The notes: generated by a model from the letters alone, not told the origin. A stretch of DNA of 64,000 nt from an uncultured delta proteobacterium (GCA_963731595.1 CAVSWE010000003.1:236948-300947); one strand, 5' to 3'. Numbered from the stretch's first letter, positions 9,120-13,927 are shown. Translations and numbers: made by a program.

Positions 9120-9613
9120 CGGTCGCTGACAGAGATAACCCTGCTTCCAGGTGCAGGTGGCCGCTATGCAGCCGCCAAAGCCGCGAAGTGGCGTACGCGG
9201 CAGCGCAGGTAGTGCCGGGCCTGATCGGCGGGCAGATCGATGCCCTTGTGCAGCTGCCGGGCGCGCTCGCGACCTACGTGAAGGCGGGAAAAGTCCGACT
9301 CCTCGCCGCGCTGATCTCGCAGCGGGATCCGGCATTACCCGATGTGCCCACCGCGATCGAGCAAGGTGTAAGCGTGTCGGTCGAGGCATGGCGTGGGATT
9401 GCCGCGCCACGGGGCACGCCCGCACGCGCCGTCAGCGCACTCGAGGCGGCAATCCGCAAGACGGTCGACGCGCCGGAATTCGCGCAAGCTTGCGAAAAGC
9501 TCGGCGTCCGCCCGGCCTATCTGCCCGCGGCCGAGTTCGGCCCACTAATTGCGAAGGAAGACGCCGAGCTCTCGGTGCTGATGCAGCAGATCGGCCTTAA
9601 GGTGCAGCAGTGA
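9120..9613 (+). pseudogene. C-terminal half only of a Bug/TctC-family periplasmic tricarboxylate-binding protein
   Basis: VPGLIGGQIDALVQLPGALATYVKAGKVRLLAALISQRDPALPDVPTAIEQGVSVSVEAWRGIAAPRGTP matches the TctC C-terminal lobe; the N-terminal ~190 aa cannot be placed because hutG occupies that space. Confidence 0.6.
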
Positions 9614-9687
9614 CCGGTGGCCTCCACGGCGATAAGAACGGCCGACGCTCTTGCCTCTCGCCCGCTAACCGGACCACAAGCCGTCGG

Positions 9688-10800
9688 TCAGAGGACTCTT
9701 TTCAGCCACGGTATCCTGCGGAAAACCAATTGTGCAGCAGCAAACGACGCGGTCGCGCTAAGAATGGTCAGCAGCAGAAATTTCGGTAGTGCCGGGACGT
9801 ACGCTGTATGCAGGATGATGGCGATCCCGATCAGGATGGGCGGGTGAAATACATAGACCGCAAATGCATTGTCGGCCATAAAACGCGCAATGCGGCCCTG
9901 CGCGTCGAAATGTTCCCTGAAGACGATTAGGATGCCTAGGCTCATGCCCGCGCAGATGATTGCCGCCCACAAGCTTATGCCGAAATTCTGCCAGTTTAGG
10001 CCGCCGGAGTAGGCGCTAGTCTCTCCTGTAAGAGCGCCCCCGAACACAAGTAGTCCTGCCCACAGGAGGAATCCCGCCAGGACCGCGCCCATAGCTACGC
10101 GTTTTCCGAGATCCGCATCCAATCTTGCCAGCCATCGAAGGCGCCAAGCGTAGGCGCCGAGCACGAACATCAAGGTGTACTGCGGAAAATCGGCCAACTG
10201 CAGATTGAAGAACACGGCTCCGGAAGGGGTCAAAACGCGAATCGCGAAGGTTGATAAACCAAGGCCGGCGATAAACCCTGCAATCGCCCCAAGCCGTGGC
10301 ACCGGACGCAACTTTTGGGTCGGCGCCAGGGAACGCGGAAAGTGGCGGACCGCAGCGTAACCTATCGAGAGCATTAGCAATGCCAAGCAAAACCAGAGCG
10401 GGCCGGAGCCGGACAGTACGTCTCCGCTGCGAACGTACTTAAGCCAAGCATCAGGGAATGACCGCCTGGTGTGCCAGGAGCGAGACACAAAATATTCGGT
10501 CAGTGGACCAATAGCCAGCATGTACAGCAGGGTGGGAATGCCCAGGCGGAGGAAACGATCGAGCAGGAAGCGTGGCGCGCCTTTCGAGTCGTACGAACGG
10601 GGGGTGAAATAGCCCGCAATGAAAAACAGCAGGCCCATAAAAAATGCCTGGAGAAAGGATTGGTAGGTCCCGAAAAACAGCAGCGTTCCGAAATTCAGTT
10701 TGGGTCGCTCCGTGTAGTACCAATTGCCGAAGGGACTGTACGTGTCGGCCGAATGCATGCTCAGAACGAGCACGATTACCACCCACCGGATATTGTCCAT
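9688..10800 (-). CDS. Acyltransferase family 3 (OpgC/OafA-like) integral membrane acyltransferase
   Basis: MDNIRWVVIVLVLSMHSADTYSPFGNWYY..; about 10 predicted TM helices; family-3 acyltransferase-like topology. Confidence 0.7.
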   Translation of the reverse strand: MDNIRWVVIVLVLSMHSADTYSPFGNWYYTERPKLNFGTLLFFGTYQSFLQAFFMGLLFFIAGYFTPRSYDSKGAPRFLLDRFLRLGIPTLLYMLAIGPLTEYFVSRSWHTRRSFPDAWLKYVRSGDVLSGSGPLWFCLALLMLSIGYAAVRHFPRSLAPTQKLRPVPRLGAIAGFIAGLGLSTFAIRVLTPSGAVFFNLQLADFPQYTLMFVLGAYAWRLRWLARLDADLGKRVAMGAVLAGFLLWAGLLVFGGALTGETSAYSGGLNWQNFGISLWAAIICAGMSLGILIVFREHFDAQGRIARFMADNAFAVYVFHPPILIGIAIILHTAYVPALPKFLLLTILSATASFAAAQLVFRRIPWLKRVL

Positions 10801-11163
10801 GTAACCGAGCCGGCTGGATGGCGCTGGGCGGCTGGCCAAATCTTTCGGCGCAGTGGAGATGGTCACGTGCGTCTCACAAATGTCACGCCGCGCATGGTAT
10901 TTGGAGCCCCAACGGAGCACAAGCCGCTAGCGCCGACACGCAAAGTTCAGATTCATCATTGATCGCGTCGTCGCCGCCGGGTCGGTGTTCATGATCCCTG
11001 GCACGCCATGCCCATTGGGAGGGTTGTCGAAATCTTTCCGAGTGCGGCATTGGCCGATGGTCCGGTATCCGAGGAGCAGGCGGCCTTGGTCAAAGCGCGG
11101 TAACATAGAGTACGCCGCCTACCGACAGGCGTAGGGGTGGACCACTTCGCATGGTCGCGCAAG

Positions 11164-11802
11164 ATGAAAATCCTCGGTGTGGGCCTCAGCAAAACGGGAA
11201 CTATGTCGCTGACTGTGGCGCTACGTCGCGTCGGCTTCAAGACGATGCACTACGACCGAGTCCGGCTAAATGACGTCCTCGACGGGAGCAATCCGAGCCC
11301 GGATTTTCGCCGCTACGACGATATCGACGCGGTTACCGACATCCCTAGCGCGTATTTCTACCGGGAGTTGCTTGAGGCGTACCCGGAGGCCAAGGCGATC
11401 CTGACCATTCGCGACGTCGAGAGCTGGTGGAGGAGCGTTTCGCACCACGTCAACGTGCAATTCCCGCTGCCCCAGCATCTGGGCTGTGCCCCTTGGACGC
11501 AACCGTTGGGGTCCGCGCCGTGCACCGACTCAGACGCGCACGCCCGTTTCATGCTGCTTCTGCACAACTACGTCTATGGCTCCCCCACTGCGCTCGAATT
11601 CTTATGGAAGAAGAAATATCTCGACCATAACGAATGTGTGGTGCAGCAAGTGCCGTCGGAACGTTTGCTGGTCATGAACATCACCGCTGGCGACGGATGG
11701 GAAAAGCTGTGCGGCTTTCTAGGCGTGCCGGTACCCGATGCGCCCTTCCCACACCTGCACCGGAGGGTCCCTCAACCCGCTTATCCAACGGCGGCATTTT
11801 GA
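11164..11802 (+). CDS. Sulfotransferase-family protein (PAPS-dependent, P-loop-like 5'-PSB motif)
   Basis: MKILGVGLSKTGTMSLTVAL.. and C-terminal ..GWEKLCGFLGVPVPDAPFPHLH are typical of small bacterial sulfotransferases. Confidence 0.55.
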   Translation: MKILGVGLSKTGTMSLTVALRRVGFKTMHYDRVRLNDVLDGSNPSPDFRRYDDIDAVTDIPSAYFYRELLEAYPEAKAILTIRDVESWWRSVSHHVNVQFPLPQHLGCAPWTQPLGSAPCTDSDAHARFMLLLHNYVYGSPTALEFLWKKKYLDHNECVVQQVPSERLLVMNITAGDGWEKLCGFLGVPVPDAPFPHLHRRVPQPAYPTAAF

Positions 11803-11918
11803 GTAGCGCGACGGTCCAGTGTAAGTCGGACTGGGACCGTCAACAATCAGACCGAGCCTCGCCACGAGCCCATATTGTCACGAACGCGCAGTTGGCCCAA
11901 CCACGCCACTCGCCGTGC

Positions 11919-12395: not shown

Positions 12396-12785
12396 CGGTC
12401 CATTTCTCCGCACCGATGGAAGATAAGGATTTCAACGCACCAAGCGCCGGCCGATCACTTTATCACGGGCTAACGCGACCGGCTGGCTGGGGGGTGCTCT
12501 CAGCCGGTCACCACTGTCGCAGTGCGGCCAACTCCGGAATTTCGAGACGACGTCGAAGTTTGCGAAGAGCGGACGACCGGAGTCTTGCTCGCGGGGCTGC
12601 CACCGGTTTTCCGGTGGCTAGCTCGACGCCGAGCTTCGGTCGCGTCAGTTGCCGGCACGCGACCTCCTACTGGCACTTAGAGTGGAACGACCGGAATACA
12701 GATATCGCATTCGAGCACACCGGTCTCTGGGTCAAACGTCGAACCTGTCCGGTAGTACTCGAAGCATGGACGGGCATCGAGTTGT

Positions 12786-13136
12786 GTGTGCAATTTCAAG
12801 CGGCTTTCCGAGCGGCGTATCGAATTTACGCTCGACGTCGCGCAGGACGCGGCGGCGGCGCAGCTTGCGCTCATCCCCGCGATAATCCGCGAAGCCATTG
12901 AGGCACAGCCCAAGACACGTTTCGACCGCGCCCACTTTAAGAAGTATGGCGAATCTGCTCTGATCTTCGAGTCGGCGTTCTACTTCTCCGATCCCGATTA
13001 CAACCGGTACATGGACGCCCAGCAGCCCATCAATCTCGCCATCTACCAGGGTCTGCAGCGGGAGGGCATAACGCTCGCTTGCCCGCCTCCGGTGGTCGTC
13101 AATGTAAGTGCGCGGGAGCGTGACGGGCCCGCTTGA
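12786..13136 (+). pseudogene. C-terminal domain only of an MscS-family mechanosensitive channel
   Basis: RIEFTLDVAQDAAAAQLALIPAIIREAIEAQPKTRFDRAHFKKYGESALIFESAFYFSDPDYNRYMDAQQPINLAIYQGLQREGITLA; an upstream stop and no TM or beta-domain sequence in any frame. Confidence 0.6.
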
Positions 13137-13449
13137 TCGTAGACGTCGAGGCTCGTCCGCCCTCGTCAAGCGCAATCCGCCACTGCTCGTACTCGGCGAG
13201 CTTCACCCCCTCGCGCTGGAGGTAGGCAGTCAGCGCCTCGCCATCAAGATCGGAGGCATCGGCGAGGACACGAGCCTTCTGCTCGACCGTCCACTCGCGC
13301 GCAGCCGGTTTCGGTTTATCGGCCATGATCGGCAGGCTACGCGCCTCCTGCAGCCAGCGCGACAGGTTCTGCTGTCGGACCCCTGTCTCCCGAGCCAACT
13401 GCAATGCACTGACTGCGTTGTTGCCGGTGAGCCGATGGACCATCTGCAC
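13099..13449 (-). mobile_element. Orphan IS3-family transposase OrfA (HTH plus leucine-zipper-like region); no OrfB
   Basis: ..LTGNNAVSALQLARETGVRQQNLSRWLQEA..EWTVEQKARVLADASDLDGEALTAYLQREGVKLAEYEQWRIAL. Confidence 0.55.
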
Positions 13450-13681
13450 CTACGAGCAAATGCTCGTTGATACCGAGGCAACCGTGCGCCAGGCCCTAGC
13501 GTTCCTGGGATTTCGCAACATCGGCGCGATCGACCCGGGGCTTCTGCAGCGCAGGTACGCTACATTCCGCGACGGCCGGATCGGCCAAGGAGCCAGCACG
13601 CTGAGCGCCAAACGGCGGCGACGGATCCGCGAGCGGTTTGCCCACTTCCCGGGCGTTGACTTTCGCCGCTACGGTCTCTGA
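13440..13681 (+). pseudogene. C-terminal remnant of a second sulfotransferase
   Basis: TYEQMLVDTEATVRQALAFLGFRNIGAIDPGLLQRR.. has the typical sulfotransferase C-terminal layout and begins exactly where the IS3 OrfA remnant ends. Confidence 0.45.
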
Positions 13682-13927
13682 TCGGACCCGCGTGTAACGA
13701 AGCGACATGAAACTTTAGGTTGCTTGCTCGCTCTGTCTGCAAACGCACAGAGGCGCGCGCTTCGGCCGGCGCACGCCTGTCGCCCACACTCGGCGAGGGA
13801 TTCTCGAGCGTCAGAATGTAGCGCGGATGCATCCAGTTCAAGCAAAGGCCCGCGAGGCGCGATCGCCGTGCCGCTAAACGCGGAGGCGCTGCGGCGTGTC
13901 AGCAAGAGCTATCTTGCAAGCCGACAC

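What the first reader, a model, noticed from the sequence alone, without database searches (positions are those of the whole stretch)
9120..13700. Mosaic of abutting gene remnants (TctC C-half, MscS C-domain, orphan IS3 OrfA, sulfotransferase tail)
Four recognisable protein-family fragments, none with its N-terminus, sit among intact genes. The TctC-like C-terminal lobe lies directly after hutG. The MscS C-terminal domain (12786-13136, +), an IS3-family OrfA (13099-13449, -) and a sulfotransferase C-terminus (13440-13681, +) overlap end-to-end within 900 nt. The pattern indicates repeated insertion and deletion events (IS-mediated) in an accessory region, not a single error. It argues against reading the neighbouring intact genes (acyltransferase, sulfotransferase, cupin, methyltransferase) as one ancestral operon.
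Basis: partly seen in the sequence, partly recalled or inferred. Interest (0 to 1): 0.5.

Follow-up and report, generated by a model that had tools for sequence, protein, structure and literature searches.

The report
Dead gene ends in a variable region
The stretch really does hold the broken ends of several genes, and related genomes show they were left by a series of ordinary deletions, insertions and one decayed jumping gene, so this is routine gene decay and not a new system.

Summary
Observation confirmed and made more precise.

**The four fragments are real 5'-truncated remnants:**
- tctC' at 9184-9613 is codons 177-318 of 318.
- mscS' at 12785-13129 is about codons 239-350 of about 377.
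- An IS3-family orfA piece lies at 13130-13446 on the minus strand. It is 317 bp and cut at both ends, with no OrfB and no terminal repeats.
- A sulfotransferase tail at 13447-13681 is codons 241-317 of 317.

No N-terminal parts are hidden in other frames.

**Related assemblies give the earlier states.**
- Casimicrobiaceae contigs (L095-L098) carry hutU-hutG-DUF1330-HbpS-like-GFO/IDH/MocA oxidoreductase-tctC-cupin-AraC/GyrI.
- The window lost 2,513 bp between hutG and mid-tctC. It gained a 2.2-kb lower-GC block (acyltransferase plus sulfotransferase_4). A block beginning with mscS' replaced most of the regulator.
- A ~99.7% identical strain (L093) shares all of this but keeps the 317-aa sulfotransferase intact. 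Only the window has 954 bp replaced by the IS piece.

**Junctions.** They show 0-6 nt of microhomology and no IS ends. This is stepwise illegitimate recombination, not transposase-catalysed deletion. The result is ordinary and non-functional, so interest is low.

The parts
8250..9212 (+). hutG (N-formylglutamate deformylase). It is functional-length up to about 9046. A 1-nt deletion in a G-run at 9039 removes the native stop and extends the ORF to 9212.
   Evidence: TIGR02017 scores 351 bits over aa 5-261. Homologues stop at about aa 264-268. L093 has an extra G at the position matching window 9039, and its hutG is 265 aa.
9184..9189 (.). Junction J1 of a 2,513-bp deletion relative to L095. 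The deletion removed DUF1330, an HbpS-like gene, a GFO/IDH/MocA oxidoreductase and tctC codons 1-176. The junction lies in an imperfect 6-nt repeat, CG(A/G)AGT.
   Evidence: L095 5316-8014 = window 6488-9189, and L095 10528-10983 = window 9184-9639. Junction sequences are and the L095 gene order.
9184..9613 (+). tctC' remnant: codons 177-318 of a 318-aa Bug/TctC periplasmic binding protein. It has no signal peptide and no N-lobe.
   Evidence: Pfam PF03401 covers positions 142-274 of 274, E=3.7e-22. It is 94% identical to L095 TctC 177-318. Of 8 residue differences, 5 are derived on the window side, including loss of a conserved Pro.
9640..11827 (.). A 2,188-bp lower-GC block absent from L095-L098, which have 307 bp here. 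It carries an intact Acyl_transf_3 gene (9688-10920, minus strand) and an intact Sulfotransfer_4 gene (11137-11802, plus strand).
   Evidence: Map, junctions. Pfam gives full-length hits. GC is 0.56-0.61 against 0.64-0.69 in the flanks. The block is present in L093, L104 and the Logan ERR11718639 contig.
11828..12784 (.). Native segment collinear with L095: cupin gene (11922-12395/12413, minus strand), intergenic DNA, and the regulator remnant.
   Evidence: L095 11291-12245 = window 11828-12784 at 91.4%. The cupin is 97% identical in protein to the L095 cupin.
12695..12784 (-). The reading frame continues to the stop at about 12677.
   Evidence: tblastn of the L095 regulator gives 83% identity, E=5e-14. 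The full L095 protein has HTH_18 plus GyrI-like domains. Junction J3 lies at 12784/12785 and is also present in L093 and L104.
12785..13129 (+). mscS' remnant: the C-terminal domain only (about aa 239 onward of a ~377-aa MscS-family channel). Its last 14 codons, as seen in L093, are also lost in the window.
   Evidence: PF21082 scores 28.4 bits. It is 58% identical to Ralstonia MscS aa 239-340. No PF00924 or TM part appears in any frame. The L093 ORF is 128 aa against 116 aa here.
13130..13446 (-). Internal 317-bp fragment of an IS3-family element (orfA nt ~35-351, codons ~12-117 of 163). It has no IRs, no orfB and no frameshift site. It replaces 954 bp that are present in L093.
   Evidence: It is 92% identical in nucleotides to L082/L083. 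OrfA homologues are 163 aa. Their OrfB scores 194 bits on NF033516. It is the only copy in the window.
13447..13681 (+). Sulfotransferase' remnant: codons 241-317 of a 317-aa PAPS-type sulfotransferase. The PKSGST PAPS-binding loop and most of the domain are deleted.
   Evidence: It is 98.8% identical in nucleotides to L093 9434-9668. The L093 protein hits Sulfotransfer_1 at 24.1 bits (cut-off 22) and is 53% identical to P0126. The tail alone matches C-termini of Sulfotransfer_1 proteins.
13682..14584 (.). Rest of the block shared with L093. It includes an intact 124-aa ORF of unknown family (13928-14302, minus strand). Beyond 14584 the window, L093 and L095 diverge.
   Evidence: No Pfam hit.

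Best explanation
The region is a strain-variable stretch just downstream of the histidine-utilisation genes of a Casimicrobiaceae-like betaproteobacterium. A series of independent illegitimate-recombination events has left five dead gene ends there. None of the fragments is expected to function.

**Inferred order of events**
1. The ancestral order was hutU-hutG-DUF1330-HbpS-like-oxidoreductase-tctC-cupin-AraC/GyrI regulator. This order is observed in L095-L098.
2. A 2.5-kb deletion between short imperfect repeats fused the DNA after hutG to mid-tctC.
3. A 2.2-kb lower-GC block carrying an acyltransferase and a sulfotransferase_4 replaced 307 bp after tctC.
4. A block that begins inside an mscS gene and carries a second sulfotransferase and a small ORF replaced the 5' 262 codons of the regulator. 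That single junction truncates two genes.
5. Events 2-4 are shared with L093, a near-identical strain. In the window's lineage only, an IS3-family element landed between mscS' and the sulfotransferase. Two non-homologous deletions, or one replacement event, then removed both IS ends, orfB, the end of mscS' and the first 240 codons of the sulfotransferase. This left a 317-bp orfA core.

**Shown versus inferred.** The breakpoints, the shared and private status of each event, and the absence of the missing gene halves are shown. The order of events 2-4, the foreign origin of the inserted blocks, and the 'insert then erode' route for the IS are inferred.
For: - Fragment identities and truncation points.
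- Ancestral-like gene order in four independent assemblies, L095-L098.
- Base-level collinearity map and breakpoints against L095.
- L093 is collinear with the window at about 99.7% outside hutU. It shares J1-J3 but has an intact 317-aa sulfotransferase where the window has the IS piece.
- L104 independently confirms J2-right and J3. A Logan contig confirms the order tctC'-acyltransferase-sulfotransferase_4.
- Lower GC of the inserted DNA.
- No tRNA, no flanking direct or inverted repeats, and no integrase domain in 9000-18800.
- Microhomology at the junctions is 6 nt (imperfect) at J1, 2 nt at the left IS junction and about 0 nt at the right IS junction.
- Decay is general in this part of the window. 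hutU has about 20 indels, the methyltransferase_3 gene has an in-frame stop, the NRPS gene has a frameshift, and the IS110 transposase is frameshifted.
Against: - The IS-bearing junctions (13129/13130 and 13446/13447) are seen only in the window. No independent assembly or read data confirm them.
- The polarity of event 3 (insertion here versus deletion in L095) rests only on GC content and on L095 holding different DNA at that site.
- Single-base frameshifts such as hutG 9039 could be consensus errors if the source is a long-read metagenome assembly.
- The source genome itself is not in the searchable collections. Whether intact copies of the IS or of the lost genes exist elsewhere in it is unknown.
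Confidence: 0.85

Rival explanations
1. All truncations were made by IS3-family (or IS110) transposase activity, through adjacent deletions or recombination between IS copies.
For: - An IS3-family fragment sits exactly between two truncated genes.
- An IS110 element is inserted 3 kb upstream, at 5001-6209.
- L093 carries further IS fragments to the right.
Against: - J1, J2 and J3 contain no IS sequence in the window, L093 or L104.
- Both IS junctions lie inside orfA, 35 nt and 351 nt into the gene, and not at a terminal repeat.
- Recombination between IS copies would leave a whole IS, not a 317-bp core.
- No second copy exists in the 64 kb.
Confidence: 0.08
2. The fragments are artefacts. Either frameshift errors hide the N-terminal halves, or a chimeric metagenome assembly joined unrelated pieces.
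For: - Related contigs have Flye-style names, which suggests long-read metagenome assemblies.
- The window has single-base indels relative to L093, for example at 9039, 5328 and 12414.
- The IS junctions are unique to the window.
Against: - A six-frame Pfam scan finds no TctC N-half, no MscS TM or beta domain, and no sulfotransferase N-part anywhere in 9000-13900.
- J1-J3 recur in independent assemblies from different samples.
- Both sides of the IS piece are collinear with L093 in the same orientation, which a chimera would not give.
- The missing DNA amounts to hundreds to thousands of bases, not single indels.
Confidence: 0.04
3. One or more fragments are retained because they work as short proteins. 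Examples would be a stand-alone TctC C-lobe, an MscS C-terminal domain protein, or a truncated OrfA acting as a transposition inhibitor.
For: - Each fragment happens to lie in an ORF with a start codon.
- tctC' is 99-100% conserved among the near-identical strains.
- tctC' is 94.7% identical to L095, slightly above its flanks.
Against: - tctC' has no signal peptide, its GTG start was created by the junction, and no promoter-like site lies upstream.
- 5 of its 8 residue changes are on the window side, including a conserved Pro.
- The mscS' C-terminus was altered again in the window.
- OrfA lacks both its start and its leucine-zipper end.
- Identity among strains is uninformative at 0.3% overall divergence.
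Confidence: 0.03

Closest known systems
Pseudogene remnants produced by deletional bias and illegitimate recombination in bacterial genomes (general phenomenon; own knowledge, e.g. Mira, Ochman & Moran 2001)
   Same: The fragments are 5'-truncated gene ends with clean breakpoints and 0-6 nt of microhomology. They sit in a strain-variable region next to other frameshifted or nonsense-mutated genes.
   Different: Nothing in principle. What is unusual is only that successive states, from ancestral-like to intermediate to most eroded, are all available in public assemblies.
IS3-family insertion sequences (orfA/orfB with programmed -1 frameshift, DDE 'rve' transposase)
   Same: The 317-bp piece is 92% identical in DNA to orfA of complete elements. 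The OrfB of those elements passes the NCBIfam IS3 model.
   Different: The window holds only codons ~12-117 of orfA. There are no terminal repeats, no orfB, no frameshift site and no target duplication, so it cannot transpose. The OrfA of this subgroup is long (163 aa) and barely detected by Pfam HTH_Tnp_1.
Bug/TctC family periplasmic solute-binding proteins of tripartite tricarboxylate transporters
   Same: It is 94% identical to the C-terminal 142 residues of a full-length orthologue. The family is typical of Burkholderiales.
   Different: The N-terminal 176 residues, comprising the signal peptide and lobe 1, are deleted.
MscS-family mechanosensitive channels
   Same: The C-terminal cytoplasmic domain (PF21082) is 58% identical to a Ralstonia MscS.
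   Different: The transmembrane helices and the beta-domain are absent, and the extreme C-terminus has been replaced by IS-derived codons.
PAPS-dependent sulfotransferases (Pfam Sulfotransfer_1/_3)
   Same: The tail is 98.8% identical in DNA to the 3' end of an intact 317-aa gene in a sister strain.
   Different: Only the last 77 codons remain, and the PKSGST 5'-phosphosulfate-binding loop is gone. It is unrelated to the intact Sulfotransfer_4 gene at 11137-11802.

Membership tests
Bug/TctC solute-binding protein (PF03401) | Sequence homology to the family | tested here: met
   PF03401 E=3.7e-22. It is 94% identical to L095 TctC.
Bug/TctC solute-binding protein (PF03401) | Complete two-lobe domain with an N-terminal signal peptide | tested here: not met
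   Only profile positions 142-274 of 274 are present, equal to residues 177-318 of 318. No N-half appears in any frame.
MscS mechanosensitive channel | C-terminal cytoplasmic domain (PF21082) | tested here: met
   28.4 bits against a cut-off of 21. It is 58% identical to Ralstonia MscS aa 239-340.
MscS mechanosensitive channel | Transmembrane helices and the conserved beta-domain (PF00924) | tested here: not met
   Absent from all six frames of 9000-13900. Homology starts at the junction 12785.
IS3-family insertion sequence | Homology to an element whose transposase is IS3-family | tested here: met
   It is 92% identical in nucleotides to orfA of L082/L083. Their OrfB scores 194 bits on NF033516, cut-off 160.
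IS3-family insertion sequence | orfA plus orfB (DDE/rve) in one element | tested here: not met
   Only orfA nt ~35-351 are present. No rve domain appears in 9000-18800, and no other hit to the 2.6-kb reference occurs in the window.
IS3-family insertion sequence | Terminal inverted repeats and target-site duplication | tested here: not met
   No inverted or direct repeats flank 13130-13446. Both breakpoints lie inside orfA.
PAPS-dependent sulfotransferase (Sulfotransfer_1/_3) | Homology to a family member | tested here: met
   It is 98.8% identical in nucleotides to L093 9434-9668. The L093 protein hits PF00685 at 24.1 bits, cut-off 22. The tail matches the P0126 C-terminus at E=1.3e-11.
PAPS-dependent sulfotransferase (Sulfotransfer_1/_3) | 5'-phosphosulfate-binding loop (PKxGS/TT) and the core domain | tested here: not met
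   The loop (PKSGST) lies at about residue 90 of the L093 protein. The window keeps only codons 241-317. The tail alone gives no Pfam hit.
AraC-HTH / GyrI-like regulator | HTH_18 DNA-binding domain plus a complete GyrI-like domain | tested here: not met
   Only aa 263-292 of 297 are retained. The remnant ORF gives no Pfam hit, while the full L095 protein has both domains.
Classical genomic island / integrative element | Integrase or recombinase, tRNA or other attachment site, flanking direct repeats | tested here: not met
   No tRNA in the window. No flanking repeats. No integrase or recombinase domain in 9000-18800.
Classical genomic island / integrative element | Atypical composition and strain-variable presence | tested here: met
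   GC is 0.56-0.61 against 0.64-0.69. Blocks 9640-11827 and 12785-14584 are absent from L095-L098.

The most novel reading that the evidence does not exclude
The stretch downstream of hutG/tctC may be a recombination hotspot in this lineage that repeatedly swaps gene-sized pieces.
- The dead hutU allele differs from the sister strain by about 6% plus 20 indels, strictly within the gene, while the flanks are identical.
- The methyltransferase at 14763-15518 is only 83% identical to L093, between flanks that are 98.8% identical.
- The lost sulfotransferase has a gene-sized 88% DNA match in unrelated contexts elsewhere.

If these reflect a specific mechanism that exchanges single genes, for example repair or replacement of dead alleles by recombination from co-resident strains, the locus would be a natural record of allele-level 'resurrection and death'.
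Probability: 0.1. Interest if true: 0.4.

Novelty: already known. Interest (0 to 1): 0.15.

Why it matters
Mainly for annotation.
- These ORFs (tctC' 141 aa, mscS' 116 aa, 'OrfA' 116 aa, the 118-aa ORF over the sulfotransferase tail, and the 320-aa hutG) should be flagged as pseudogenes or remnants, not called as proteins.
- The acyltransferase, the two sulfotransferases, the cupin and the methyltransferase should not be read as one biosynthetic operon.

The locus is also a clean, base-resolved example of stepwise erosion: an ancestral-like, an intermediate and a most-eroded haplotype are all available. It shows that an IS can be a victim of deletion and not only its agent. It opens no new biological question.

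Tried and rejected
- **Hidden N-termini.** Six-frame translations of 9000-13900 and 13901-18800 against Pfam at E<=1 and E<=0.1 found nothing beyond the known hits.
- **Synteny through hutG in GTDB species representatives.** The best relatives are only 70% identical in protein and have no tctC next to hutG, so this was uninformative.
- **Exact-protein look-ups of window ORFs** (hutG 320 aa, orf124, mscS' 116 aa). None is on record, so the source assembly is not searchable.
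- **OrfA by tblastn against plasmids.** No match.
- **Sulfotransferase tail.** Pfam, PDB and the word-indexed protein search gave nothing, or one 58-aa hit on a contig that starts inside the gene. The tail was resolved only by the exhaustive HMMER search and by L093.
- **L094, a 72% TctC homologue.** It is a full-length but frameshifted paralogue-like gene in an unrelated context, so it is not the ancestral locus.
- **Repeats, tRNAs, Rfam, and promoter/terminator scans.** Nothing relevant.
- **GC3 periodicity** was too weak to call coding remnants.
- **Sequencing error as the cause of the hutU frameshifts.** Rejected for three reasons. The 42 L093-side differences are mostly third-codon-position changes. 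The differences are confined to the gene. The indels are not in homopolymers.
- **Metagenome scan with the intact sulfotransferase.** It found 85% homologues but no mscS neighbour, so the donor context of the mscS'-sulfotransferase block remains unknown.

Full report
**Observation**

The region was read on both strands.

- **TctC.** ORF 9188-9613 hits Pfam TctC (PF03401) at E=3.7e-22, but only over profile positions 142-274 of 274. It aligns to residues 183-319 of a 321-aa Phaeobacter TctC and to residues 177-318 (94% identity) of a 318-aa orthologue in L095.
- **MscS.** ORF 12786-13136 hits only the MscS C-terminal domain PF21082 (28.4 bits, cut-off 21). It is 58% identical to residues 239-340 of a 377-aa Ralstonia MscS.
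- **OrfA.** ORF 13099-13449 (minus strand) is only weakly seen by Pfam and NCBIfam. It is nonetheless 80-91% identical to a large set of 163-aa OrfA proteins. These sit upstream of rve-domain OrfB genes, and those OrfB proteins pass the NCBIfam IS3 model (194 bits, cut-off 160).
- **IS fragment at the DNA level.** Window 13445-13129 is 92% identical to orfA nt ~35-351 of those elements, and nothing else of the element is present anywhere in the 64 kb. The 'orphan OrfA' is therefore an internal fragment cut at both ends.
- **Sulfotransferase tail.** It has no Pfam or PDB hit and only one word-indexed homologue. An exhaustive HMMER search matched it to the C-termini of proteins carrying Sulfotransfer_1 domains. 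A sister strain has the intact gene, as described below.
- **No hidden halves.** A six-frame Pfam scan of 9000-13900 found no TctC N-half, no MscS membrane or beta domain, and no sulfotransferase N-part.

**Related loci give the earlier states**

The TctC fragment search returned 99%-identical fragments (P0136, P0137). Through their cluster it also returned a full-length 318-aa orthologue named by its source as Casimicrobiaceae (P0256).

P0256 lies on four independent assemblies, L095-L098, all with the same gene order:

NRPS - methyltransferase_3 - IclR - hutU - hutG - DUF1330 - HbpS-like - GFO/IDH/MocA oxidoreductase - tctC - cupin (minus) - AraC-HTH/GyrI-like regulator (minus) - mdoG - mdoH

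The window aligns to L095 at 91-95% DNA identity, in blocks:

| L095 | Window | Content |
|---|---|---|
| 5316-8014 | 6488-9189 | collinear |
| 8015-10527 (2,513 bp) | absent | three genes and tctC codons 1-176 |
| 10528-10983 | 9184-9639 | collinear |
| 10984-11290 (307 bp) | 9640-11827 (2,188 bp) | replaced by acyltransferase_3 plus sulfotransferase_4; GC 0.56-0.61 against 0.64-0.69 |
| 11291-12245 | 11828-12784 | collinear: cupin, intergenic DNA, last ~36 codons of the regulator |
| 12246-13418 | 12785-14584 | replaced by mscS', the IS piece, the sulfotransferase tail and orf124 |

Regulator residues 263-292 lie at 12784->12695 on the minus strand (83% identity; domains of the full protein). 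One junction, at 12784/12785, truncates both the regulator and mscS.

**A near-identical strain isolates the last event**

L093 (ENA ERZ25039546) is collinear with window 4666-13129 and 13447-14577 (98.3% and 98.8% overall, and about 99.7% outside hutU). It has the same tctC', inserted block, cupin, regulator remnant and mscS'.

Where the window has the 317-bp IS piece, L093 has 954 bp. These comprise the last 14 codons of the mscS' ORF, an intergenic stretch, and the first 240 codons of a 317-aa sulfotransferase. That protein hits Sulfotransfer_1 at 24.1 bits (cut-off 22), carries a PKSGST loop, and is 53% identical to P0126.

The window's tail is codons 241-317 of that gene. Homologues at 85% protein identity are intact in other metagenomes, so the intact state is ancestral.

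J2-right and J3 are also present in L104, from a different sample. The order tctC'-acyltransferase-sulfotransferase_4 is present in a further Logan contig. The shared junctions are therefore real. The two IS junctions are so far unique to the window.

**Junction anatomy and mechanism**

- J1 lies in an imperfect 6-nt repeat, CG(A/G)AGT.
- The left IS junction shares 2 nt (CC), and the right IS junction has essentially none.
- J2 and J3 show no repeats.
- No junction coincides with an IS terminus. There is no tRNA, no integrase and no flanking repeat.

The best-supported mechanism is a succession of illegitimate (microhomology or non-homologous) deletion and replacement events.

For the last event, the simplest route is insertion of a complete IS3-family element. 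Erosion of both its ends, together with flanking DNA, would have followed. This route is inferred, and a one-step replacement cannot be excluded. Transposase-made adjacent deletions would end at an IS terminus, and recombination between copies would leave a whole IS. Neither is seen.

**Judgement on the interpretation**

'Repeated insertion and deletion in an accessory region, not a single error' is right, and there are at least five events. 'Not one ancestral operon' is also right. The cupin is native, the acyltransferase plus sulfotransferase_4 arrived as a separate block, the second sulfotransferase came with mscS', and the genes lie on different strands. 'IS-mediated' is not supported, except in the loose sense that an IS once inserted at one of the sites.

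**Function**

None is expected.
- tctC' lacks its signal peptide and lobe 1, and its GTG start is a by-product of the junction.
- Five of its eight residue changes relative to L095 are on the window side, including loss of a conserved proline.
- mscS' has no membrane part.
- The OrfA piece lacks its start and its C-terminal third.
- The sulfotransferase tail lacks the cofactor loop.
- No promoter-like sites or RNA families were found.

**Context**

Decay is not confined to the finding.
- Relative to L093, hutU (6599-8228) carries about 20 indels, which are not in homopolymers, and 84 mismatches. These are confined to the gene, while hutG and the next 3 kb show almost none.
- Of the hutU differences, 42 are L093-derived and mostly at third codon positions. 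Another 30 are window-derived and spread over all positions. This points to a genuinely dead allele and an allele exchange by recombination, not to sequencing noise.
- hutG has a -1 in a G-run at 9039.
- The methyltransferase_3 gene has an in-frame stop.
- The NRPS gene is frameshifted.
- An IS110 element is inserted at 5001-6209 and is frameshifted relative to L093.

**Novelty and limits**

Every component belongs to a well-known family, and the phenomenon (pseudogene remnants in a variable region) is textbook. The source assembly itself could not be found. Single-base indels and the two IS junctions therefore cannot be checked against reads. The donor context of the mscS'-sulfotransferase block and the direction of event 3 remain inferred.

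**Verdict:** a correct observation, a largely correct but over-attributed interpretation, and an ordinary finding.

Noticed in passing
window 6599-8228 (hutU): hutU is a multiply frameshifted pseudogene. Against the near-identical strain L093 it has about 20 indels and 84 mismatches, all confined to the gene, while the flanks are essentially identical. L093-side changes are mostly at third codon positions, and window-side changes are spread over all positions. This suggests a dead and a live allele exchanged by recombination.
   Followed up: partly
window 9039: A 1-nt deletion in a GGGG run, 7 nt before the hutG stop, extends the hutG ORF from 265 to 320 aa so that it overlaps the tctC' ORF. 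It could be a real slip or a consensus error.
   Followed up: partly
window 12695-12784 (minus strand): The C-terminal ~30 codons of an AraC-HTH/GyrI-like regulator abut mscS' tail-to-head.
   Followed up: yes
window 197-3571 (minus), 4076-4765 (minus), 5001-6209, 6483-6572: The NRPS gene has a frameshift near 3200, and its ORF ends early at 1289. The methyltransferase_3 gene has an in-frame stop. An IS110 insertion is absent from L095, and its transposase is frameshifted at 5328 relative to L093. There is also a short IclR C-terminal remnant. Pseudogene density is high across the first 9 kb.
   Followed up: partly
window 14578-15575 (methyltransferase 14763-15518, minus strand): The methyltransferase is only 83% identical in DNA to its L093 counterpart, although the adjacent 1.1 kb is 98.8% identical. 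Collinearity with L093 ends at about 15575. This looks like another allele or segment swap.
   Followed up: no
L099 818-1764, L100 5999-6945 (JGI metagenome contigs): The sulfotransferase that is truncated in the window has an 88% DNA match in these contigs that starts and stops almost exactly at the gene ends. The flanks are unrelated, and there is no mscS nearby.
   Followed up: no
L095 10984-11290 / L096 4708-4944: The 307 bp that the ancestral-like haplotype has in place of the acyltransferase block contains a 78-aa ORF. It resembles the C-terminus of an ABC_sub_bind protein only weakly and below threshold (E=0.047). Even that haplotype may hold a remnant.
   Followed up: partly
window 16029-16295 (minus strand), repeats at 16114-16173: A lysine-rich 88-aa ORF contains 15-nt tandem repeats encoding KKEKV units. 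It has no Pfam hit.
   Followed up: no
window 17008-18738 (minus strand): An intact 576-aa ORF at core-like GC with no Pfam domain.
   Followed up: no
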